Positions 13,429 to 25,617 of a stretch of 64,000 nt of DNA are shown piece by piece; the stretch's first letter is position 1, and each line of letters opens with the position of its first letter. The DNA is taken from the IMG/VR virus record IMGVR_UViG_3300028992_000036. The stretch is one strand, 5' to 3'. The translations under genes were made by a program, and so were the position numbers. The notes beneath the pieces are model-generated. The model had not been told where the DNA came from. It saw only the letters and a program-made list of their open reading frames with translations, and made no database searches. Origin of the DNA: a virus (Duplodnaviria > Heunggongvirae > Uroviricota > Caudoviricetes).

Positions 13429-13893
13429 ATGAAGTCTCCCATACTGTTCACTTTCTGTTCTAAAACTATCATGAAATACTCGCTTCTCCCTCTACTAACG
13501 TTACCAGTGTTGATGCTTACCGCGTGCCAATCACGCCCAATATCAATCCATGACGCCAAACCAGCACCGCAGGCCAAAGTGTTCAAGTATCAAAGCGCAG
13601 CGCCAGCTACGTTGGTGGTAATGAGAGACACAGGTTTTGTAGGAGCTGGATGTGATGCTTCCATTTTCATCAACGGCGAAACTGTCGCAAAACTGGCTAC
13701 AGGCGAAAAAGCGACTTTCCATTTAAATGCCGGAGAATTAATTGTGGGTGCATCTCTTGAAGGTGCAGGTTTATGTGCTCTAAACCCCGCTCGTCAAGAG
13801 CGAGAAACGACTCTGAAGAATGGAGACACAAAAGCGTTCAGGGTGTTCACCAGCAATTCTGGTGACATCGACATTCTGCCAACAACTCTGTGA
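13429..13893 (+). CDS. putative lipoprotein
   Basis: Signal peptide ending in lipobox LTAC; AGGGAGACAAAG Shine-Dalgarno (alternative start at 13471). Confidence 0.5.
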   Translation: MKSPILFTFCSKTIMKYSLLPLLTLPVLMLTACQSRPISIHDAKPAPQAKVFKYQSAAPATLVVMRDTGFVGAGCDASIFINGETVAKLATGEKATFHLNAGELIVGASLEGAGLCALNPARQERETTLKNGDTKAFRVFTSNSGDIDILPTTL

Positions 13894-13897
13894 TGAC

Positions 13898-14422
13898 ATG
13901 ACAACCAAAGATATTACCTACGGTATCCAAGCTGAACTCTGGCCGCGAGATTACACTAACGTTGAAAAACTACTGATGTTCTGGCGCAGAGAACAAATTC
14001 CTGTAAGGGTCACTCTCGAAGATGGCCAGGCGTTTTGCATGTACGTTTATGGCCTCATGCCATCTCGTAACAAAGTTGACCTTTGCCCAGCCCCTTTTGA
14101 CAAAGAAAATCGTATAAGGCTCCCACTTGAACGCATTAGTACAATTGAATCAGGTGTGGTTGACAGTATCGCTCACGATTTCAAAGGTCGACTAACAGTT
14201 CACCCTGATTATGTCGATAATCGGCCATCACGCCGCGATTTTTTTGCAATTTGCAACCAAGCCTACAAAGCAAACAAATCTATAAGGGTGTACATGGCGG
14301 ATGGCCGTGAAATTGAGGGGGTGTCAGCAGGCGCAGATGCTTGTCAGGTTACACTACGTGTCGAGAACGGTAGAAAAATAGTTGTTTTGTTCGATTGGGT
14401 TGAACGAATTTTGCCTTTTTGA
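13898..14422 (+). CDS. hypothetical protein (start curated to MTTKDITY)
   Basis: ATG 4 nt after the lipoprotein stop; ORF-track start at 13820 overlaps the upstream gene. Confidence 0.45.
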   Translation: MTTKDITYGIQAELWPRDYTNVEKLLMFWRREQIPVRVTLEDGQAFCMYVYGLMPSRNKVDLCPAPFDKENRIRLPLERISTIESGVVDSIAHDFKGRLTVHPDYVDNRPSRRDFFAICNQAYKANKSIRVYMADGREIEGVSAGADACQVTLRVENGRKIVVLFDWVERILPF

Positions 14423-14425
14423 GTT

Positions 14426-14734
14426 ATGAAATCGATATTGTTACCACCATTATTTTTACTTTGCTCAGTTACGGCAAATGCAATGGACTATAAGCCTGTC
14501 ATTCAGTCGCTGATGAATGACGTGTGCTCAACGTCTCAGAATGTATCAGTTTGCATGTATCAATTTTCGGCAGCCGTAAAAGCAGGAAAAGCGATAGGTG
14601 AGAATGTGGAACTGTGTAAGAAAGTGGCAAATGAAGAAAGGGCAATGTTGGATTGCGAATCTAGCGAGTCATCGGCACAGTTCGTTGATGCGCTATTTGA
14701 CACCAATCGTAAGGCTGTAGAGTCTGTTCAATAA
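14426..14734 (+). CDS. small secreted/periplasmic protein
   Basis: N-terminal signal peptide MKSILLPPLFLLCSVTANA; 102 aa. Confidence 0.5.
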   Translation: MKSILLPPLFLLCSVTANAMDYKPVIQSLMNDVCSTSQNVSVCMYQFSAAVKAGKAIGENVELCKKVANEERAMLDCESSESSAQFVDALFDTNRKAVESVQ

Positions 14735-14920
14735 ATCTATAAGGTTAATAACCGGCTAAGTCCGGCTATTATTTTTCACATCACTTCTTTATATCTACAA
14801 ATCAAATAACCTAAATATATATAAGGTCTAAAGCCGCAATCGATTATTTATTTAGGGAACACCTTCGACGATCTCGCTTTTATTTCTAGGACTTTCATCC
14901 CTGCAAAAAATTTTAAAAAA

Positions 14921-14948
14921 ACACTTGCAATCTATTTTCGCGTATCGA
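14921..14948 (+). promoter_or_regulatory. putative sigma70-type promoter TTGCAA-16 bp-GATAAT upstream of AT-rich cassette
   Basis: Hexamer match and spacing in an AT-rich intergenic region about 70 bp upstream of the 15018 start. Confidence 0.3.
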
Positions 14949-15017
14949 TAATTGAACTCGTCGAAAGCGAAGACGCTAACGACAATAAATTTTAAATTTA
15001 CATAAGGAAAAATTATC

Positions 15018-15668
15018 ATGGCTAACATTATCATTTCTAAAAAATCCATCATTGAAGCTGCTTCCATTGTATCCGATGAACTGCGCGAAAAAGCAGATCT
15101 GGCAACTCAAACATATAACGAACATTATAAAAATGGTACGCACACTAAAGCAGACAAAGCAAATATGCAAGCTGCGACCACTAAACTTGCTTACTTCATC
15201 AACAACGTCGTAAACGCAGTAGAAGACGAAAAATTATGCTCTGTTTTCTACTATGCGATTAAAGCAAGCAAACAAGCGCCAGAAGTATTTTTCCGTGATG
15301 CAATGACTAATAGTTATTCTCTGGAAAAACTGGTTTATCTGGTTAAATCAATTAAATCTGGTAAATGCGTTTATTCCATCGCTGATATGTCAGGATCTCG
15401 TGTATTCGCTTTAATCGATATGATTAACGACGAGATCGACACGTTCACCAATGGCGCTGTTTTCGATTTAATGAATGAAGCTAAAAAAGCGTGCGAAATT
15501 AAATTGGACGCTGGCTATACTCAAGCCAACCAGTTGATCAATCTTTGCGAACGTCTTGGACTTGTTGAGAAAGTCAAAGGAATGGGAAGCGCAAAAGCTG
15601 GTACACAGCAATATCGCTTTATCAAGAATGATTTCTACAATTATTTAGCTGATGCTTTTAAAGCGTAA
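15018..15668 (+). CDS. hypothetical protein of AT-rich cassette
   Basis: 216-aa ORF with Shine-Dalgarno AAGGAAAAA; markedly AT-rich codon usage versus neighbours; followed by hairpin terminator. Confidence 0.5.
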   Translation: MANIIISKKSIIEAASIVSDELREKADLATQTYNEHYKNGTHTKADKANMQAATTKLAYFINNVVNAVEDEKLCSVFYYAIKASKQAPEVFFRDAMTNSYSLEKLVYLVKSIKSGKCVYSIADMSGSRVFALIDMINDEIDTFTNGAVFDLMNEAKKACEIKLDAGYTQANQLINLCERLGLVEKVKGMGSAKAGTQQYRFIKNDFYNYLADAFKA

Positions 15669-15682
15669 TTAATGGAATCAAG

Positions 15683-15705
15683 CGCCCACTATGGGCGCTT
15701 TAAAG
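15683..15705 (+). terminator. hairpin GCGCCCACTATGGGCGC + T-tract
   Basis: Perfect inverted repeat; identical element repeated at 16179-16205. Confidence 0.5.
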
Positions 15706-15718
15706 GAGCTTTAAAAAA

Positions 15719-15922
15719 ATGGTCAGCTATGACAAGATCCGCGCAAAGTATCGCGCAAAGTATCGCGCTTATAAACTGGAATTAATCGATGATTTGATCG
15801 CGCAACGCGACCAATTAAATTTTACGTTTTCTGATTTGCTTAACAGCAAGCGAGATTGCAAGCGCAAACGTGAATACTTACGTTTAAGCGCATTAATCGG
15901 AAAACTTCAAAATTCTATTTAA
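15719..15922 (+). CDS. small basic protein (YRAKYRAKYRA repeat)
   Basis: 67-aa ORF with AAGGAGC Shine-Dalgarno. Confidence 0.4.
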   Translation: MVSYDKIRAKYRAKYRAYKLELIDDLIAQRDQLNFTFSDLLNSKRDCKRKREYLRLSALIGKLQNSI

Positions 15923-15943
15923 TTTTTTTTAAGGAGCTTAATC

Positions 15944-16174
15944 ATGTTTGTTCTTATCGCTGGCGTTAACGTCCATAATGAATATTATGTTAATCGCATC
16001 GCTGGGATCGCTGGTTACGCTGGGCGCGCAGTCGAGCTTATAGATGAAACGACGCGCAAAATTGACTTATTGAGCGACCAGGAGCGAAAAAAAGCAGACG
16101 TGAACGACGCTGATATATTTTTAATGTTAAAAGCGTTTGTAGAAATGGGATTTAAAATCAGTTTACACAAATAA
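15944..16174 (+). CDS. small hypothetical protein
   Basis: 76-aa ORF with AAGGAGC Shine-Dalgarno; followed by hairpin + T7 terminator. Confidence 0.4.
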   Translation: MFVLIAGVNVHNEYYVNRIAGIAGYAGRAVELIDETTRKIDLLSDQERKKADVNDADIFLMLKAFVEMGFKISLHK

Positions 16175-16178
16175 AATC

Positions 16179-16205
16179 GAGCGCCCACTATGGGCGCTTT
16201 TTTTC
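16179..16205 (+). terminator. rho-independent terminator GCGCCCACTATGGGCGC + TTTTTTT
   Basis: Perfect stem followed by 7 T; second similar hairpin GCGCCAtcaTTGGCGC + T-run near 16228-16252. Confidence 0.55.
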
Positions 16206-16659
16206 GTTTCCAATACACCTACCATAACGCGCCATCATTGGCGCGTTTTTATTGTCTTTAACTCACTCCAACAACATAAAAATAAGCGCCAAAATAACGC
16301 CATAGACGCGCTTTTATATCCTTACCAGTACATGCCCATTACTTAACACATTAACGCGCTTAAAACGCATTATATTGCGCTATAGAGTATGGTTAATCAT
16401 TGGCTTTTAGTCTTGCTATGTGATCCGCGTTTATTTGTCGGTGCGGATCGGCATTTTGTTTTGTTCTGTATCCGCTCGCGTATTATGTGCGCGTGATTTT
16501 TCACATAATCACACCACTTAATCACGTATGTGATTATGCTACGAAAGAAATCTGGATGTCTCAGGCGACGAAAGTCATCATAATTTCCCCCGCTCACCTG
16601 TCCGACAACCGCTGGTTGGATTCCACCAGCTTCCCGATGTTTTTTCTACACAAAGGCGA

Positions 16660-16785
16660 ATGCAGCCGTTTCCCGAAAAAATCCTGGCCGTTCCCCGTCG
16701 GCTCATGAATACGTTCCTCGCCGTTTCTGAAAATTTCCCTGCGGCAGCTGGTGGCTATAGAGAAAGGGCCGTTTCTGGCCCTCTT
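16660..16785. repeat. iteron-like array, about 5 copies of GCCGTTTCCC(TGAAAA) at about 22-bp spacing
   Basis: Repeats at about 16666, 16688, 16712, 16721, 16769; same motif family as the array at 19790-19950. Confidence 0.5.
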
Positions 16786-16790
16786 CTCAG

Positions 16791-17273
16791 TTACACGCCA
16801 TCAAGGATGTGGATGCGGTTGCTTGCGTATACATTCAGCATAAAGTTAGCGCAAAACAGTTTCCATGTATCAACGCCAGCGGTATACGTAATGTTTTTGC
16901 ATTTAATTGCATTGTTGGCGATCCGCATCCCCTGCGATACTGCTTCATCGTCGGAAAATTTGAACGACGATTGAGTTTTAATCCAGACAGAAATCTGCGT
17001 AGCGAACTCAATCAGCTTGGACTGGCAGAATCGCCCGGAGCGCACCGGAAAGACGAACGTTCCGAATCCAGAATTTACCACATATGCTTTCTCAAATACC
17101 CGCGAGTAACGACGATTGCCAATGATGTCGCGTGCAATAATGCATTTTTCTTGTGCTGACAGTTCTACCGTCTCATTGTCGCGCCATGCACCAAGTACTC
17201 GTTTTTCAATGTCAGAGAACGTTACAGCGATATTGCCATGTGCGGGTGCGTTTACAGTAGCGATAAAATTCAT
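16791..17273 (-). CDS. hypothetical protein
   Basis: 160-aa ORF; TAAGGAATTAATC Shine-Dalgarno; upstream AACAAATTGTTTTCT palindrome. Confidence 0.5.
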   Translation of the reverse strand: MNFIATVNAPAHGNIAVTFSDIEKRVLGAWRDNETVELSAQEKCIIARDIIGNRRYSRVFEKAYVVNSGFGTFVFPVRSGRFCQSKLIEFATQISVWIKTQSSFKFSDDEAVSQGMRIANNAIKCKNITYTAGVDTWKLFCANFMLNVYASNRIHILDGV

Positions 17274-18115: not shown

Positions 18116-18511
18116 TTAAGCGAATACGCTTTCAGGGATTAAGGTGTCGGCAGGAATGCCAGAGGTAATGCGCAGGCCGTACTGACCAATCCAGGTAGTG
18201 TTGGTATTCAGGCTGGAGGCGAATACGGTGTTAACCATATTCATCATGGTTTCAAACACCTCTTCATCAACCTGGCGGAAGTAGTTCTCGATTTTCAGCA
18301 GCAGCGGGTCAGTTGCATCGAGAATGGACTGGTATTGAGTCGCGTACTCGCCGCCGGAGGCATCACCTTTACGCACGATCGTACTGGCCTGGACTTCGGC
18401 ACCAGTTTCGGTGTTGTACGTAACAACGGTAATTTTTGCCACATTCTTACCTTCGGCGGTTTCAGAGGCATAGTAAACATCAACTGTCAGTTTTTCGCGT
18501 TTAACGGTCAT
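18116..18511 (-). CDS. hypothetical protein
   Basis: 131-aa ORF with CTACGGAGAG Shine-Dalgarno. Confidence 0.5.
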   Translation of the reverse strand: MTVKREKLTVDVYYASETAEGKNVAKITVVTYNTETGAEVQASTIVRKGDASGGEYATQYQSILDATDPLLLKIENYFRQVDEEVFETMMNMVNTVFASSLNTNTTWIGQYGLRITSGIPADTLIPESVFA

Positions 18512-19789: not shown

Positions 19790-19950
19790 ACGCCGCCGTT
19801 CCTGAACCGGCATCGAGCCTTTTCCCGAAATCCACACAGGCAACTCGACCGTTTCCCTGAAAACCTCCAGCCGTTCCCCGAAGGCAACCCAGCCGTTTCT
19901 GTAGCGGGATGCAACCTTTTCCCTGTATGGACCGAAGGCTGACCGTAGGG
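19790..19950. repeat. iteron-like array, 6-7 copies of (A/G)GCCGTTTCCCTGAA at about 22-bp spacing
   Basis: Copies at about 19795, 19818, 19848, 19870, 19892, 19915, 19941; overlapping ORFs have non-protein-like composition. Confidence 0.5.
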
Positions 19951-20995
19951 GTGTTACGGGGGATAAAATCAGGAGTTGAATAAATACGAAAAAGGAGGCG
20001 ACACCCCTCCTTCCCTCCCCACTTATACATACCTGGCTTCTTCGCTATACATGTTGTGTTTTATCTGTCTCAACCTCTCTATAGGCGTTAATGCTCACTC
20101 CTTCCAGAATGTTCTATACGGCAACTATTTCTGTTGGTGAATTGGGTGTGTTGTTCTCTCTGTCGGTGTATGTGGTTTCGTTCGTTTTGCGGTGGTTCTT
20201 CTATGGGGTGTTCTCGTCGTTTTGGTGATTGTTCTTCTCCGTGTATGGAGTAATGGCAGGTGGGCGATTCCTTTCGTTGTTGTGTTTGAGTTGTTTGTCT
20301 GGAGTGTGTGAAAGGCTTTTGCAGTTATTCGTGTATTGGGTAATGGCATTTCCCGTGATTGTTGTGTTTCGTGTCTTTTGGGATTGAGAGAAACCTTGCG
20401 GTTACAGGCTTCGTTGGGGTTTCAGTGATTCTGGTGTTCTTCGCTGTTTGGGGAATGGCGTGTCGTGGGTATCGCGCGTATGAATGTTTTCGGATTGCCT
20501 GTGAAAGTTAGGTTGGTTGTCCGGTAGCCTGGGGAGAAGAGGTGGGTCTTTTCGGTAGCCTGCCATAAAGAGGTTGGTTGTTTTTGGAAATGGCATTTGT
20601 GTTATTTAGTTGTTTTGTTATGCCTGAAAATAAGTTGTTTATATGGTTGTGTAACGCAACGGGAGCGATTTTGAGCGTGTGTTTTTGTTGGTAGTATGTT
20701 GGGTCGTCTGTGGTGAAAATTGGACGCTGTGGCGCTGTCTGCTGCGTAGAGTTACGGGTATAAGCAGTGATGTGTGAAAACGTCAATTTTTTAGACCAAA
20801 TCGGGTGAAAGCGTTGATGTTTCGTTGATCTGTTATTCAGTTGTTTTCTTGATTGTATAAACAACTATAACTTATTGATATTTAAGGATGTGATTGCGGG
20901 TATGGAAGAAGAGTAGTGGCGATCAACGGATTCTTATAGAAAAGAATCAAATTGTGACCGCCATTATCAACTGATTGATTTGTTTACTTGTGTAG

Positions 20996-21394
20996 TCAGT
21001 TCTCGAAATGAATAGGGTCAACGTAATGCCGCTCACCGCTTTTACCATTACACAGCACTGTAACTTTCGCCTTTTCACTCCAGGCTGAGTATAGAAAGTT
21101 CCCATCAGGTTGAACATGGTAACGAGAGAAGTAAACATCGCCGACTGAGGCGTCGAACATGTTCCTATCTTTTTCACTTTGGGCAAGCGAGATGGATATC
21201 ACCGAATTCCCATTTGGGGAAACGATTTTAAATTTATTCCCTATATCCATAACAATATTGTAACCAGGTAATTGCTTGTGTGTTTCCGGATCTATTTTCA
21301 TGCATCGTGGGTACACGATAGTGTTAGGCTCTTCAACTGGCGTGGCATTAGCAGAAAGCACAAAAAATATTAGTGCCAATGGTGCATATTTCAT
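20996..21394 (-). CDS. secreted protein (signal peptide)
   Basis: N-terminal MKYAPLALIFFVLSANA; GTGAGGGAT Shine-Dalgarno; 132 aa. Confidence 0.5.
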   Translation of the reverse strand: MKYAPLALIFFVLSANATPVEEPNTIVYPRCMKIDPETHKQLPGYNIVMDIGNKFKIVSPNGNSVISISLAQSEKDRNMFDASVGDVYFSRYHVQPDGNFLYSAWSEKAKVTVLCNGKSGERHYVDPIHFEN

Positions 21395-21594
21395 TTATCC
21401 CTCACAATTTCCAATTTTCCAGACCATCGTCTATTTCAGCGTCAGGGTGGAATTGTACCGCATCAAATCCTACATCGAGCACCTTTCGAATGTTCTTGAT
21501 GGTTAGACTGGCCCCCTGAATCTCCAGACAACCAGTATCACTTAAATAAGTGATAGTCTTAATACTAGTTTTTAGACTAGTCATTGGAGAACAG

Positions 21595-21960
21595 ATGATT
21601 GATGTCTTAGGGCCGGAGAAACGCAGACGGCGTACCACACAGGAAAAGATCGCAATTGTTCAGCAGAGCTTTGAACCGGGGATGACGGTCTCCCTCGTTG
21701 CCCGGCAACATGGTGTAGCAGCCAGCCAGTTATTTCTCTGGCGTAAGCAATACCAGGAAGGAAGTCTTACTGCTGTCGCCGCCGGAGAACAGGTTGTTCC
21801 TGCCTCTGAACTTGCTGCCGCCATGAAGCAGATTAAAGAACTCCAGCGCCTGCTCGGCAAGAAAACGATGGAAAATGAACTCCTCAAAGAAGCCGTTGAA
21901 TATGGACGGGCAAAAAAGTGGATAGCGCACGCGCCCTTATTGCCCGGGGATGGGGAGTAA
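21595..21960 (+). CDS. insC: IS2 transposase OrfA (InsC-like)
   Basis: Protein begins [56 protein letters not shown], matching recalled IS2 InsC. Confidence 0.8.
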
Positions 21961-22823
21961 GCTTAGTCAGCCGTTGTCTCCGGGTGTCGCGTGCGCAGTT
22001 GCACGTCATTCTCAGACGAACCGATGACTGGATGGATGGCCGCCGCAGTCGTCACACTGATGATACGGATGTGCTTCTCCGTATACACCATGTTATCGGA
22101 GAGCTGCCCACGTATGGTTATCGTCGGGTATGGGCGCTGCTTCGCAGACAGGCAGAACTTGATGGTATGCCTGCGATCAATGCCAAACGTGTTTACCGGA
22201 TCATGCGCCAGAATGCGCTGTTGCTTGAGCGAAAACCTGCTGTACCGCCATCGAAACGGGCACATACAGGCAGAGTGGCCGTGAAAGAAAGCAATCAGCG
22301 ATGGTGCTCTGACGGGTTCGAGTTCTGCTGTGATAACGGAGAGAGACTGCGTGTCACGTTCGCGCTGGACTGCTGTGATCGTGAGGCACTGCACTGGGCG
22401 GTGACTACCGGCGGCTTCAACAGTGAAACAGTACAGGACGTCATGCTGGGAGCGGTGGAACGCCGCTTCGGCAACGATCTTCCGTCGTCTCCAGTGGAAT
22501 GGCTGACGGATAATGGTTCATGCTACCGGGCTAATGAAACACGCCAGTTCGCCCGGATGTTGGGACTTGAACCGAAGAACACGGCGGTGCGGAGTCCGGA
22601 GAGTAACGGAATAGCAGAGAGCTTCGTGAAAACGATAAAGCGTGACTACATCAGTATCATGCCCAAACCAGACGGGTTAACGGCAGCAAAGAACCTTACA
22701 GAGGCGTTCGAGCATTATAACGAATGGCATCCGCATAGTGCGCTGGGTTATCGCTCGCCACGGGAATATCTGCGGCAGCGGGCTTGTAATGGGTTAAGTG
22801 ATAACAGATGTCTGGAAATATAG
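21918..22823 (+). CDS. insD: IS2 transposase OrfB (InsD-like, DDE catalytic domain; normally expressed as OrfAB by -1 frameshift)
   Basis: 301-aa ORF overlapping orfA in -1 frame; integrase-core-like region. Confidence 0.8.
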
Positions 22824-23426: not shown

Positions 23427-25460
23427 TTACTTAACCTGGTGGCCAGGTTTAGCACCAGCATCCGGGCTTAACAGGAAGATATCTTTCCCGCCGGGGCCAG
23501 CAGCCATCACCATGCCTTCAGAGATACCGAAGCGCATTTTACGTGGTGCCAGGTTAGCCACCATAATGGTGTGACGACCAATCAGTGCCTGTGGATCTGG
23601 ATAAGCGGAACGGATGCCTGAGAAGACATTACGCTTTTCACCACCGAGATCCAGCGTCAGGCGAAGCAGTTTGTCAGAACCTTCTACAAACTCTGCGTTT
23701 TCAATCAGCGCCACGCGCAGGTCAACTTTGGCGAAGTCGTCAAAGGTGATAGTTTCCTGAATCGGGTCGTCAGCCAGTGGGCCAGTTACCGGTGCGGCTG
23801 TGGCTTTCACTTCTTCTTTGGATGCTTCCACCAGTGCTTCAACCTGCTTCATATCGATGCGGTTATACAGTGCCTTGAACGGATTCACTTTATGGCCCAG
23901 CAGCGGTTGCTGGATACCATCCCAGGTCAGTTCTGTATTCAGGAATGCTTCTGCACGTTCAGTCAGTTTCGGCAGTACCGGTTTCAGGTACGTCATCAGC
24001 ACGCGGAACAGGTTAATGCCCATAGAGCAAATCGCCTGCAGATCGGCATCGCGTCCTTCCTGCTTTGCCACCACCCACGGAGCCTGTTCATCAACATAGC
24101 GGTTAGCCAGGTCAGCCAGTGCCATGATTTCACGGATAGCTTTGCCAAATTCGCGGCTTTCCCATGCTTCGCCAATCACTTCAGCGGCATCAGTAAAGGT
24201 TTTGTACAGTTGCGGGTCAGCCAGTTCGCTTGCCAGCACGCCGTCAAAACGCTTGTTGATAAAGCCTGCATTACGGGAGGCCAGGTTAACCACTTTGTTA
24301 ACGATATCGGCATTCACACGCTGAACGAAATCTTCCAGGTTGAGATCGATATCATCAATGCGCGAAGAGAGTTTCGCAGTGTAGTAGTAACGCAGGCTGT
24401 CGGCGTCAAAATGATTCAGCCAGGTGCTGGCTTTAATAAAGGTGCCGCGAGACTTGGACATCTTCGCGCCGTTCACCGTCACATAGCCGTGAACAAACAG
24501 GTTGGTCGGCTTGCGGAAGTTGCTGCCTTCCAGCATGGCAGGCCAGAACAGGCTGTGGAAGTAAACGATATCTTTGCCGATGAAGTGGTACAGCTCGGCG
24601 GTGGAGTCTTTCTTCCAGTATTCGTCGAAGCTGGTAGTGTCGCCGCGTTTGTCGCACAGATTCTTGAAGGAACCCATGTAGCCAATCGGCGCGTCCAGCC
24701 AGACGTAGAAGTATTTGCCCGGTGCGTTCGGAATTTCAAAACCGAAGTAAGGTGCGTCACGGGAGATATCCCACTGTTGCAGGCCAGATTCAAACCACTC
24801 CTGCATTTTGTTTGCCACCTGCTCCTGCAACGCACCGCTGCGGGTCCATGCCTGCAACATTTCGCTGAAAGAAGGCAGATCAAAGAAGAAGTGTTCGGAA
24901 TCACGCATTACCGGTGTAGCGCCAGAAACCACTGATTTCGGCTCGATCAGTTCCGTCGGGCTGTATGTCGCGCCGCAGACTTCACAGTTATCGCCGTATT
25001 GATCCGGCGCTTTACATTTCGGGCATGTGCCTTTTACAAAACGGTCCGGCAGGAACATGCCTTTTTCCGGGTCGTACAGCTGAGAGATGGTGCGGTTTTT
25101 AATAAAACCGTTCTCTTTCAGGCGAGTATAGATAAGCTCGGACAACTGACGGTTCTCTTCGCTGTGCGTCGAGTGATAGTTGTCATAGCTGATGTTAAAG
25201 CCTGCGAAATCAGTCTGATGTTCCTGACTCATTTCGCCAATCATCTGTTCCGGTGTGATACCAAGCTGCTGTGCTTTCAGCATGATTGGCGTACCGTGGG
25301 CATCGTCGGCACAGATGAAATTAACCTCGTGGCCGCGCATTCGCTGGTAACGAACCCAGACATCAGCCTGGATGTGCTCCAGCATATGGCCGAGGTGGAT
25401 TGAGCCGTTAGCGTACGGCAGCGCGCACGTCACCAGAATTTTCTTCGCGACTTGGGTCAT
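23427..25460 (-). CDS. metG: methionine--tRNA ligase (start curated to [10 protein letters not shown]; ORF-track N-terminal extension rejected)
   Basis: 677 aa; essentially collinear with E. coli MetG as recalled (class I HLGH motif, KMSKS, C-terminal tRNA-binding domain); hairpin terminator at about 23385-23410. Confidence 0.95.
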
Positions 25461-25617
25461 AGTAGGCATTACTTCTTTGTAGTGAAAAGGGGCTTGATAG
25501 TAACAAAATGGCCTTATGTCTGCCATGTGATAACAGCATTTCTCATAAATGATTAAATGTCGTAGCTGGAGTACACTACAAGGCGACAATTGCGCAAATT
25601 AAAATAAAGGAGACGGG

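What the first reader, a model, noticed from the sequence alone, without database searches (positions are those of the whole stretch)
14735..16400. AT-rich three-gene cassette with repeated ribosome-binding-site and terminator modules
The region is markedly more AT-rich than its surroundings and encodes proteins of 216, 67 (YRAKYRAKYRA basic repeat) and 76 aa, none recognisable. Two of the genes are preceded by the same TTTAAAGGAGCTT ribosome-binding context, and two are followed by the identical hairpin GCGCCCACTATGGGCGC. Compositional anomaly plus modular small genes is the typical signature of recently acquired morons such as toxin-antitoxin, abortive-infection or anti-defence genes.
Basis: seen in the sequence. 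Interest (0 to 1): 0.6.

Follow-up and report, generated by a model that had tools for sequence, protein, structure and literature searches.

The report
Core phage-plasmid operon with swappable small genes
The AT-rich three-gene stretch is an old, universally conserved and normally silent operon of SSU5-type phage-plasmids, not a newly acquired defence or toxin cassette; its terminator hairpin serves as a docking point where two families of tiny accessory genes are gained, lost and swapped.

Summary
In detail: three ORFs (216, 67 and 76 aa), the lowest-GC kilobase of the window, near-identical ribosome-binding modules and an exactly duplicated hairpin. The window is an SSU5-type phage-plasmid of E. 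coli.

The 216-aa gene (g1) is not a recent arrival. It occurs in 815 PLSDB plasmids, genus by genus as often as the major capsid gene, including Y. pestis pMT1. Its GC deficit is kept in every lineage. It ranks 5th of 76 ORFs for codon adaptation, and its dN/dS is about 0.1.

It forms its own transcription unit: upstream-operon terminator, three invariant non-coding boxes, A-tract, sigma-70 promoter, 5' stem-loop leader, g1, terminators.

A census of 93 loci shows an "empty" state (g1, hairpin A with T-tract) and "occupied" states. In the occupied states, SD-ORF-hairpin A modules sit exactly between the stem and the T-tract.

g2 co-diverges with g1. g3 has moved recently between divergent backbones (synonymous divergence 0.09-0.15 against about 0.5 for the adjacent g1).

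The g1 model is helical with a C-terminal winged helix. g3 looks ferredoxin/ACT-like. No toxin-antitoxin or defence family matches. In a published lysogen transcriptome, the g1 and g3 homologues are at the detection floor.

Function remains unknown. The best guess is a tightly shut-off DNA-binding regulator with exchangeable small partners.

The parts
14747..14776 (+). Intrinsic terminator of the upstream operon (helicase to FljA-like gene to 102-aa ORF): AATAACCGG / loop / CCGGCTATT followed by a T-run. It isolates the g1 unit.
   Evidence: Sequence. Conserved in 7 of 8 relatives aligned and across 80 unique upstream sequences. In Cyrano the upstream operon is expressed while g1 is not.
14817..14826 (+). 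Invariant upstream box 1, ATATATAAGG
   Evidence: At least 97% identical in 80 unique upstream sequences whose g1 proteins are 39-100% identical. Does not recur elsewhere in the ~108-kb element.
14846..14866 (+). Invariant upstream box 2, ATTTATTTAGGGAACACCTTC
   Evidence: Unique in the window and in the rest of the element.
14880..14895 (+). Invariant upstream box 3, TTATTTCTAGGACTTT (about 32 bp from box 2; boxes 2 and 3 share TTTATTT..AGG)
14905..14952 (+). Promoter: A/T tract (UP-element-like) 14905-14921, -35 TTGCAA 14925-14930, 16-nt spacer, -10 GATAAT 14947-14952 (conserved TCGATAAT)
   Evidence: Consensus scan. CTTG and TCGATAAT are invariant across lineages. Function as a promoter is inferred, not shown.
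14960..14983 (+). Leader element at the predicted 5' end of the mRNA: GUCG-AA-AGCG-AAGA-CGCU-AA-CGAC stem-loop, followed by an unstructured A/U-rich leader and SD AAGGA (15004-15008)
   Evidence: Folds as the MFE structure in three lineages. 93% of cells paired. The closing pair covaries (AU in 14 variants, GC in 4), but 5 of 8 pairs are invariant and one is broken in 8 of 18 variants. Conserved in the 61%-identity lineage.
15018..15668 (+). g1, 216 aa, core gene (phrog_1513). Model: long helical hairpin, helical bundle, then a C-terminal winged-helix-like unit with an invariant helix YTQANQLI
15681..15699 (+). Hairpin A, copy 1 (AGCGCCC-ACTAT-GGGCGCT). Its T-tract is replaced by the SD of g2, so it is predicted to act as a leaky attenuator or 3' stabiliser of the g1 message.
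15699..15922 (+). g2 module: SD context TTTAAAGGAGCTT (15699-15711) plus g2 ORF 15719-15922 (67 aa, pI 9.9, phrog_6145, mis-named 'MIT/CorA transporter')
   Evidence: A distant homologue sits in the slot of the 61%-identity g1 lineage. Co-diverges with g1. dN/dS 0.05-0.14.
15927..16174 (+). g3 module: SD context TTTTAAGGAGCTT (15927-15939) plus g3 ORF 15944-16174 (76 aa, phrog_1585; ferredoxin/ACT-like model)
   Evidence: Laterally exchanged. dN/dS 0.12-0.48.
16179..16204 (+). Hairpin A, copy 2, with a T7 tract: the strong intrinsic terminator of the unit
   Evidence: (z = -6.2 together with hairpin B).
16226..16252 (+). Hairpin B (AACGCGCC-ATCATT-GGCGCGTT plus T-run): second, back-up terminator, conserved in all lineages with a flipping loop

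Best explanation
The region is a self-contained, ancient transcription unit of SSU5/pHCM2/pMT1-type phage-plasmids. It is not foreign DNA that arrived recently. SHOWN: (1) g1 is a core gene, as widespread as the capsid gene. It is under strong purifying selection, and its AT-richness is kept in every lineage together with above-average codon adaptation. (2) The unit is bounded by the terminator of the upstream operon and by two tandem terminators. Its upstream non-coding DNA carries three boxes, a promoter and a leader element that are more conserved than the protein and occur nowhere else in the element. (3) The terminator hairpin A directly after g1 is the docking point for small-gene modules of the form SD-ORF-hairpin A. 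Elements exist with no module (g1, hairpin A, T-tract) and with a g2-type, a g3-type, both, or two g3-type modules. The insertion always falls between the stem and the T-tract, which turns copy 1 into a hairpin without a proper T-tract. (4) g2 has co-diverged with g1, whereas g3 has been exchanged recently between divergent backbones. (5) In the one lysogen transcriptome available, g1 and g3 are at the detection floor while the operon just upstream is expressed. INFERRED: g1 is a sequence-specific DNA-binding protein. It has a C-terminal winged helix with an invariant recognition helix and an N-terminal helical hairpin suited to oligomerisation. It is kept off in the plasmid (lysogenic) state and made in a burst, either on induction or infection or on establishment in a new cell. 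Its most likely DNA target is the set of private boxes at its own promoter (autoregulation), possibly among others. g2 (basic, helical) and g3 (ferredoxin/ACT-like) are small partners made at lower level by read-through of hairpin A copy 1, and they modulate or extend g1's activity. Gain, loss and swapping of the modules occur by recombination or template switching between the identical hairpin modules.
Against: No experiment bears on the function of any of the three proteins. The winged-helix assignment rests on an AlphaFold model, and no structural match was significant (Foldseek found none at E<=1e-3). The expression data come from one relative (Cyrano, which lacks g2), with low coverage of the plasmid, and ParB-like maintenance genes are equally low there. 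'Silent' therefore does not prove 'lytic only'. No induction or infection time course exists. Autoregulation is a guess from the co-conservation of the recognition helix and the private boxes. Four of the five g3 models were poor. Hairpin-mediated recombination is inferred from junctions and has not been observed.
Confidence: 0.55

Rival explanations
1. One reading: a recently acquired moron cassette encoding a toxin-antitoxin, abortive-infection or superinfection-exclusion function that acts from the resident prophage or plasmid.
For: AT-rich, small unannotated genes, own promoter and terminators. g2 and g3 are variably present. Loss of a related Klebsiella plasmid increased uptake of plasmids and phage bursts, though no gene was mapped (PMC8969562).
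Against: g1 is universal and old, with conserved low GC. The homologues are at the RNA-seq floor in the lysogen and fall outside the authors' expression-based moron list. No PADLOC, Pfam or NCBIfam toxin, antitoxin or defence hit. g2 and g3 are not an obligate pair.
Confidence: 0.07
2. An early anti-defence or host-takeover operon. It would be silent in the lysogen and fired from a strong promoter immediately after DNA entry or induction, with swappable small modules matching different host defences.
For: Silent in the lysogen but with a consensus-like promoter, A-tract, strong SD and high CAI. The accessory small genes vary between lineages, and one is laterally mobile. A g3-like gene (35% identity) lies among small ORFs of an IncX4 conjugative plasmid.
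Against: g1 looks like a sequence-specific DNA binder with an invariant recognition helix, not a mimic or sponge (pI 7.6). Extreme conservation of g1 (dN/dS about 0.1) is unlike arms-race genes. No match to any known anti-defence fold was seen in PDB searches.
Confidence: 0.15
3. A plasmid-maintenance accessory: a tightly autorepressed DNA-binding protein, in the manner of KfrA/KorA-type operons, that acts in replication, partition or copy-number control of the plasmid form. Its low RNA level would reflect autorepression rather than a lytic role.
For: It lies in the maintenance neighbourhood: two ParB_N genes, a helicase, and iteron-like GCCGTTTCC arrays at 16665-16776 and 19795-19900. ParB-like genes are equally low in the transcriptome. 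The weak structural hits include the Orc1/Cdc6 WHD and RTP. The gene is retained in Y. pestis pMT1.
Against: No Rep, Par or KfrA family signal. The GCCGTTTCC repeats are not adjacent to any recognisable initiator gene. High codon adaptation is unusual for a low-copy autoregulator.
Confidence: 0.18
4. H-NS-silenced conditional cargo. The conserved AT-richness exists because the unit is regulated by xenogeneic silencing and is only switched on in particular host environments.
For: It is the lowest-GC segment, with an A-tract and AT-rich upstream DNA. The conserved TCGATAAT at -10 resembles the H-NS nucleation motif TCGATAAATT (recalled from memory, a lead only). The Cyrano homologue rises from the floor to log2 of about 5.6 in macrophages at 6 h.
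Against: Many silent Cyrano genes rise similarly in that sample. High CAI explains part of the AT-rich codon choice. There are no H-NS binding data.
Confidence: 0.1

Closest known systems
PeSL (promoter-early stem-loop) regulatory cassettes of T4-type phages (PMC2839356, PMC4122927)
   Same: A short conserved regulatory motif containing a terminator stem-loop and a Shine-Dalgarno sequence brackets small ORFans. Insertions and deletions between close relatives fall exactly at the motif. Recombination between motif copies is the proposed vehicle. Transcriptional insulation is preserved.
   Different: The repeat here has no promoter, so the small genes depend on read-through from the g1 promoter. 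It occurs at a single locus downstream of one core gene rather than throughout hyperplastic regions. The element is a temperate phage-plasmid. The insertion splits the stem from the T-tract of a terminator. Mini-circles were not tested.
Morons of temperate phages (Hendrix/Juhala concept, as summarised in PMC9928086 and PMC2839356)
   Same: Extra genes of atypical composition with their own regulatory punctuation. g2 and g3 are present in some relatives and absent from others.
   Different: g1 is core. g2 and g3 lack their own promoters. The unit is not expressed from the repressed prophage. The flanking repeats appear to mediate the mobility, which the moron model does not assume.
Integron gene cassettes (attC hairpins)
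   Same: Promoterless ORFs, each followed by a hairpin-forming site, stacked downstream of a fixed promoter-bearing platform.
   Different: No integrase gene nearby. The hairpin is a perfect 17-19-nt terminator stem-loop rather than a 57-141-nt imperfect attC with extrahelical bases. There are at most two or three modules, from only two protein families.
Winged-helix DNA-binding regulators (ArsR/MarR/PadR type) and WHD-containing initiators (Orc1/Cdc6, RTP)
   Same: The predicted beta-alpha-alpha-beta-beta unit at g1 residues 142-201, with a conserved polar recognition helix and a Gly/Lys-rich wing.

Membership tests
Moron (phage accessory gene expressed from the prophage) | Present in some but absent from otherwise closely related genomes | tested here: inconclusive
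   Not met for g1 (universal). Met for g2 and g3.
Moron (phage accessory gene expressed from the prophage) | Own promoter and terminator, forming an autonomous transcription unit | tested here: inconclusive
   The whole unit has a predicted promoter and terminators. g2 and g3 individually have no promoter-like site. No transcript mapping is available.
Moron (phage accessory gene expressed from the prophage) | Transcribed in the lysogen, independent of the lytic programme | tested here: not met
   The Cyrano homologues CYRAN_113 and CYRAN_112 are at 5.9 and 5.0 against a prophage median of 9.8 and a cut-off of 49, and are not in the authors' moron list.
Type II toxin-antitoxin module | Two adjacent small genes that always occur as a pair | tested here: not met
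   g2 only in 27, g3 only in 19, both in 14, and neither in about 9 unique loci.
Type II toxin-antitoxin module | Similarity of at least one partner to a known toxin or antitoxin family | tested here: not met
   No Pfam, NCBIfam or PADLOC hit. The g3 fold hits are ACT/ferredoxin-like, not toxin folds.
Known anti-phage defence systems (PADLOC-DB) | Match to a defence-system protein model | tested here: not met
   0 families for all three proteins at E<=1.
PeSL-type modular shuffling cassettes | Conserved composite motif flanking small ORFs on both sides | tested here: met
   The hairpin A module (31 nt, 90%) lies on both sides of the small genes in every occupied locus, and each gene is individually bracketed in L034 and L036.
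PeSL-type modular shuffling cassettes | Motif contains a strong sigma-70 early promoter | tested here: not met
   No promoter-like site lies between 15669 and 15944. The repeat is hairpin plus SD only.
PeSL-type modular shuffling cassettes | Indels between relatives have their end-points in the motif | tested here: met
   The empty state equals a single hairpin A plus T-tract. Occupied states have the insertion between the stem and the T-tract.
PeSL-type modular shuffling cassettes | Excised mini-circles formed by motif-motif recombination | not testable with these tools
   Needs inverse PCR on induced cultures or virion DNA.
Integron cassette array | Adjacent tyrosine-recombinase integrase and attC-type imperfect palindromes | tested here: not met
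   Neighbouring genes are ParB_N, a helicase, an FljA-like gene, small ORFs of unknown function and an IS3 transposase 5 kb away. The hairpin is a perfect 6-7-bp GC stem with a 5-nt loop.
Winged-helix DNA-binding proteins (for g1) | wHTH fold with a recognition helix and beta-hairpin wing | tested here: inconclusive
   The AF2 model shows it. The only structural matches are weak ones to wHTH proteins. No Pfam HTH or WH model is matched. DNA binding cannot be tested here.
ACT/RAM-like small-molecule-binding domains (for g3) | beta-alpha-beta-beta-alpha-beta ferredoxin-like fold forming dimers that bind ligands | tested here: inconclusive

The most novel reading that the evidence does not exclude
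g1 is the so far unrecognised developmental-switch or establishment regulator of the SSU5/pHCM2/pMT1 phage-plasmid group. This group is widespread in clinical Klebsiella, E. coli, Salmonella Typhi and Yersinia pestis. In this reading the terminator hairpin behind g1 acts as an integrase-free, promoterless 'mini-integron': template switching or recombination at one 17-nt hairpin lets elements trade alternative small modulators (g2-type, g3-type) that retune the switch.
Probability: 0.15. Interest if true: 0.7.

Novelty: new variant of a known kind. Interest (0 to 1): 0.42.

Why it matters
SSU5-type phage-plasmids are among the commonest large non-conjugative plasmids of clinical Enterobacteriaceae. 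They carry resistance genes and include pMT1 of Y. pestis and pHCM2 of S. Typhi, yet how they choose between plasmid life and lytic growth is essentially unknown.

This unit is one of their few universal non-structural genes. It has unusually well conserved private cis-elements and is tightly off in the lysogen, which makes it a concrete candidate for a control gene that can be tested by simple deletions and reporter fusions.

The hairpin-docked modules also give a clean natural example of how a terminator can serve as a portable junction for gene gain and loss in a temperate element. That extends the PeSL idea beyond T4-type phages.

There is a practical annotation lesson too. Low GC in a phage-plasmid gene need not mean recent acquisition.

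Tried and rejected
- **Rfam:** nothing in the whole window at gathering threshold, and nothing credible in 14700-16900 at E<=5.
- **Protein family libraries:** PADLOC, NCBIfam and Pfam gave no usable hit for any of the three proteins. A PDB sequence-profile search with the g1 family found nothing.
- **FljA-like link:** I tested the idea that the neighbouring FljA-like protein, from a family of post-transcriptional repressors (PMC2652032), acts on the g1 leader. The E. coli fliC 5'-UTR shows no convincing similarity to the leader, so this remains an untested speculation.
- **Regulon idea:** the upstream boxes, the leader element and hairpin A do not recur in the window or in the remaining 45 kb of the closest complete relative.
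- **Replication-origin idea:** the GCCGTTTCC arrays have no Rep-family gene nearby; the neighbouring ORFs have no Pfam family or belong to an IS3 element.
- **Alternative sigma factors:** sigma-28, sigma-54, sigma-E and sigma-32 promoter readings of the upstream DNA were considered by eye and did not fit. This is inference only.
- **'MIT/CorA transporter' label:** the label on g2 homologues (SSU5_119, phrog_6145) was rejected. g2 is a 67-aa soluble basic protein with no such domain.
- **Literature:** no further expression data exist for SSU5-like elements. One 2026 preprint could not be opened.
Full report
**What the window is.** The stretch 14400-16500 matches 'Escherichia phage CMS-2020a' at 97.9% over its full length. 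It also matches PhiR41_1, Cyrano (pLF82), Salmonella phage SSU5 and several Klebsiella phage-plasmids. The window is therefore an SSU5-type phage-plasmid of E. coli. It holds the major head, portal and terminase genes at 2.8-7.5 kb. It holds two ParB_N genes, a UvsW-like helicase, a lipoprotein and an FljA-like (Flag1_repress) gene just upstream of the finding.

**Checking the observation.** The three ORFs are 216 aa at 15018-15668, 67 aa at 15719-15922 and 76 aa at 15944-16174.
- GC of 14735-16400 is 0.374 against 0.462 for the window, and 15001-16000 is the lowest 1-kb bin.
- GCGCCCACTATGGGCGC occurs exactly twice, against none in 100 shuffles. The duplicated module is 31 nt at 90% identity.
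- The two ribosome-binding contexts differ by one base. As a motif alone they are not beyond chance, but relatives show they belong to a conserved module (below).
- Only the second hairpin is followed by a T-tract. The first runs straight into the Shine-Dalgarno sequence of the 67-aa gene.
- No Pfam, NCBIfam or PADLOC family is matched. PHROGs places the proteins in phrog_1513, phrog_6145 and phrog_1585, all without a real function. The 'MIT transporter' name of phrog_6145 is inherited from a mis-annotation of SSU5_119.

**g1 is a core gene and its composition is an old trait.** tblastn finds g1 in all 12 SSU5-like phage records and in 815 PLSDB plasmids.
- Per genus, the g1 numbers equal those of the major capsid protein of the same window: Enterobacter 91/91, Yersinia 62/62, Salmonella 49/49, Citrobacter 25/25, Shigella 6/6, Klebsiella 346/340, Escherichia 217/200.
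- The carriers include Y. pestis pMT1 and extend to a Pectobacterium plasmid at 39% identity with the same gene order.
- Outside this group the family does not exist. An exhaustive profile search of 1.8 billion representatives found 23 clusters, all fragments or members of the same family.
- In seven relatives, g1 is 4-11 GC points below the rest of its own locus: SSU5 0.395 against 0.507, pMT1 0.395 against 0.503, Pectobacterium 0.317 against 0.385. The low GC is therefore inherited and is not a mark of recent arrival.
- g1 ranks 5th of 76 ORFs for E. coli codon adaptation (CAI 0.431; the capsid gene is first), although it is 3rd lowest in GC.
- dN/dS against distant relatives is 0.05-0.11.

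**A self-contained transcription unit with private cis-elements.** Alignment of eight relatives, and then of 80 unique upstream sequences whose g1 proteins span 39-100% identity, shows the following features:
- a conserved terminator for the upstream operon (14747-14776);
- three boxes that are at least 97% invariant: ATATATAAGG at 14817, ATTTATTTAGG-AACACCTTC at 14846 and TTATTTCTA-GA at 14880;
- an A/T tract, a -35 TTGCAA and a -10 GATAAT embedded in a conserved TCGATAAT;
- a leader element, GUCG-AA-AGCG-loop-CGCU-AA-CGAC, at the predicted 5' end of the message.

The leader element is the minimum-energy fold in three lineages, followed by an unstructured A/U-rich leader and a strong SD. Formal counting on 18 variants gives 93% paired cells and a covarying closing pair (A-U in 14, G-C in 4). 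However, five of eight pairs never vary and one is broken in 8 of 18 variants, so the support for an RNA structure is modest. One divergent leader keeps a stem with a different sequence, and one E. coli subtype has lost the element.

None of the boxes, the leader or hairpin A recurs elsewhere in the window or in the remaining 45 kb of the closest complete relative. These non-coding elements are better conserved than the protein, so they are functional sites. What binds them is unknown.

**The hairpin is a docking point for small-gene modules.** I collected 93 loci: annotated phages and plasmids, 5 GTDB genomes and 80 IMG/VR contigs. I then scored what follows g1. By unique downstream sequence:
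- g2 only: 27
- g3 only: 19
- g2 and g3: 14
- a divergent g3 allele (g3b, 51% identical; the pMT1/pHCM2 type) alone: 3
- g3b with g2: 3
- no tblastn hit to either: 16

Of those 16, nine are truly empty. In them the g1 stop codon is followed 14-16 nt later by one hairpin A with its full T-tract (TTTTTTCGTT), and then by hairpin B.

In every occupied locus, hairpin A copy 1 has lost the T-tract to the SD of the first small gene (TTTAAAGGAG, TTTTAAGGAG or TAGTTTTAAGGA). A second hairpin A carrying the T-tract closes the array.

Two loci (L034, L036) carry g3b and g3 in tandem. Each gene is preceded by TTTWAAGGAGCTTAATCATG and followed by its own hairpin A, giving three copies.

The 61%-identity g1 lineage (L089-L093) has in the slot a 67-aa protein that is a distant g2 homologue (38% over 50 residues, pairwise E 1e-8). 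The 50%-identity Klebsiella element has three tandem hairpin-plus-T-tract modules and no gene. The Pectobacterium element has a single unrelated terminator.

The unit of variation is thus SD-ORF-hairpin A, inserted between the stem and the T-tract of the g1 terminator. Deletion between the direct hairpin repeats would regenerate exactly the empty allele that is observed.

**Different histories for the two small genes.** All three ORFs are under purifying selection: g2 dN/dS 0.05-0.14 and g3 0.12-0.48. In backbones whose g1 differs from the window's g1 at 49-54% of synonymous sites (L009, L046, L051, L052, L055-L057, L060), the adjacent g3 differs at only 8.5-14.7%. g2 differs at 53-74% and so tracks g1. 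g2 is therefore an old, vertically inherited partner of g1. The g3 module has moved recently between divergent backbones, which is direct evidence that the hairpin-bounded module is mobile. A g3-like gene (35% identity) also lies among small ORFs of an IncX4 conjugative plasmid. Both families are otherwise confined to about 100-115-kb enterobacterial contigs.

**What the proteins look like.**
- *g2.* It is basic (pI 9.9) and predicted to be helical.

**Expression.** The only data are the LF82/Cyrano transcriptomes re-analysed in PMC9928086. Values are log2(FPKM+5), so 2.32 means zero.
- CYRAN_113 (g1) is 2.78 and 2.32, and CYRAN_112 (g3) is 2.32 and 2.32, in LB overnight. They stay at or below 3.6 in two other in-vitro conditions and rise to about 5.6 and 4.6 in macrophages at 6 h.
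- Their normalised counts (5.9, 5.0) are below the prophage median (9.8) and far below the authors' moron cut-off (49). Neither is in the moron list.
- The operon immediately upstream (CYRAN_118 to 114) is at 18-114 in the same samples. The upstream terminator therefore works, and the g1 promoter is off in the lysogen.
- Caveats: one strain, no g2, low coverage, ParB-like genes equally low, and no induction time course.

**Interpretation.** The architecture and evolutionary history are well supported. For function I commit to the following, at about even odds.
- g1 is a DNA-binding regulator that is kept off in the plasmid state and made in a burst, either on induction or infection or on establishment. 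Promoter strength, SD, leader and codon usage all point to high output when it is on.
- The private, co-conserved boxes at its own promoter are the most likely binding sites, either for g1 itself (autoregulation) or for a dedicated repressor or activator.
- g2 and g3 are made at lower level by read-through of the T-tract-less hairpin A copy 1 and act as small partners.

**Comparison with known systems.** The closest described mechanism is PeSL-mediated modular shuffling in T4-type phages. There, a conserved promoter plus stem-loop plus SD motif brackets ORFans, and recombination between motif copies inserts or deletes them (PMC2839356; PMC4122927). The present case shares the stem-loop, the SD, the bracketing and the indel end-points. 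It lacks the promoter, is confined to one locus behind one core gene, and occurs in a temperate phage-plasmid. It fails the expression criterion for morons and the integrase and attC criteria for integrons. I therefore rate it a new variant of a known kind. The three protein families themselves are uncharacterised.

**Side observations.**
- The loops of both terminator hairpins flip to their reverse complement between even very close relatives. Hairpin A has ACTAT 124 times against ATAGT 19. Hairpin B has ATTGTT/AACAAT 21/9 and AATGAT/ATCATT 13/7. This is the signature of template-switch loop inversion described for RNA hairpins (PMC8794818).
- A candidate 85-nt minus-strand small RNA lies at about 16275-16362 inside the finding's coordinates.
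- GCGCCGTTTCC-type iteron-like arrays lie at 16665-16776 and 19795-19930.
- A strongly G/T-skewed stretch lies at 20.1-20.5 kb.

Noticed in passing
window 15682-15698, 16181-16197, 16226-16247 and the same sites in L001-L093: The loops of both terminator hairpins are found in either orientation (reverse complement) while the stems stay invariant, even between elements whose g1 is 99-100% identical. Hairpin A: ACTAT 124 against ATAGT 19. Hairpin B: ATTGTT/AACAAT 21/9, AATGAT/ATCATT 13/7, ATTGAT/ATCAAT 3/1. This is recurrent loop inversion, as expected from replication template switching (PMC8794818).
   Followed up: partly
window 16275-16396, minus strand: Candidate small RNA of about 85 nt, convergent with the cassette. 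It has a promoter-like TTAACC-16-TATAAT (16396-16369, 10 of 12 matches) and a terminator-like hairpin plus T-run (16301-16285). Its central hairpin has an invariant loop, AUGGGUAUG, and its stem changes compensatorily in three clades (GGUA/UACC, AGUA/UACU, GCUA/UAGC). G-U pairs favour the minus strand. No Rfam match.
   Followed up: partly
window 16665-16776 and 19795-19930: Two arrays of five to six copies of a GCCGTTTCC(C)GAA-like motif. The second array has about 22-bp spacing and looks like iterons. The motif is over-represented (45 against 25.9 +/- 5.2) and is conserved next to the cassette as far as the Klebsiella 50% and Pectobacterium elements. No Rep-family gene was found nearby.
   Followed up: partly
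window 20100-20520: A strongly strand-skewed, G+T-rich stretch on the + strand (GC skew +0.31 and AT skew -0.35 for 20001-21000), overlapping small minus-strand ORFs. Cause unknown.
   Followed up: no
window 13820-14422: An FljA-like protein (Pfam Flag1_repress, E 2.5e-84, plus a weak Hfq-like signal) is encoded just upstream of the g1 unit in every relative and is expressed in the Cyrano lysogen. FljA-type proteins block translation of flagellin mRNA (PMC2652032), so the element may silence host flagellin. A link to the g1 leader was tested by comparison with the K-12 fliC 5'-UTR and found no support.
   Followed up: partly
window 15719-15922; SSU5_119; phrog_6145: g2 homologues are annotated 'MIT family metal ion transporter CorA' in SSU5 and in PHROGs. 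The protein is a 67-aa basic soluble protein with no such domain, so the name is a propagated annotation error.
   Followed up: yes
window 14426-14734: The 102-aa signal-peptide-bearing ORF between the FljA-like gene and the g1 unit is itself variably present. It is absent in Cyrano, PhiR41_1, SSU5 and pMT1, and a 99-aa ORF sits at the same place in pJN2-26. This is a second variable slot in the neighbourhood.
   Followed up: no
window 21550-22823: An IS3-family insertion sequence (HTH_Tnp_1 orfA plus rve orfB) at higher GC (0.51-0.55) than its surroundings.
   Followed up: no
window 18116-18511 and 23427-25589, minus strand: Two genes of unknown function (phrog_2473, phrog_8598) have CAI 0.51. 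They are second only to the capsid gene and above g1, which suggests further highly expressed unknowns in this element.
   Followed up: no
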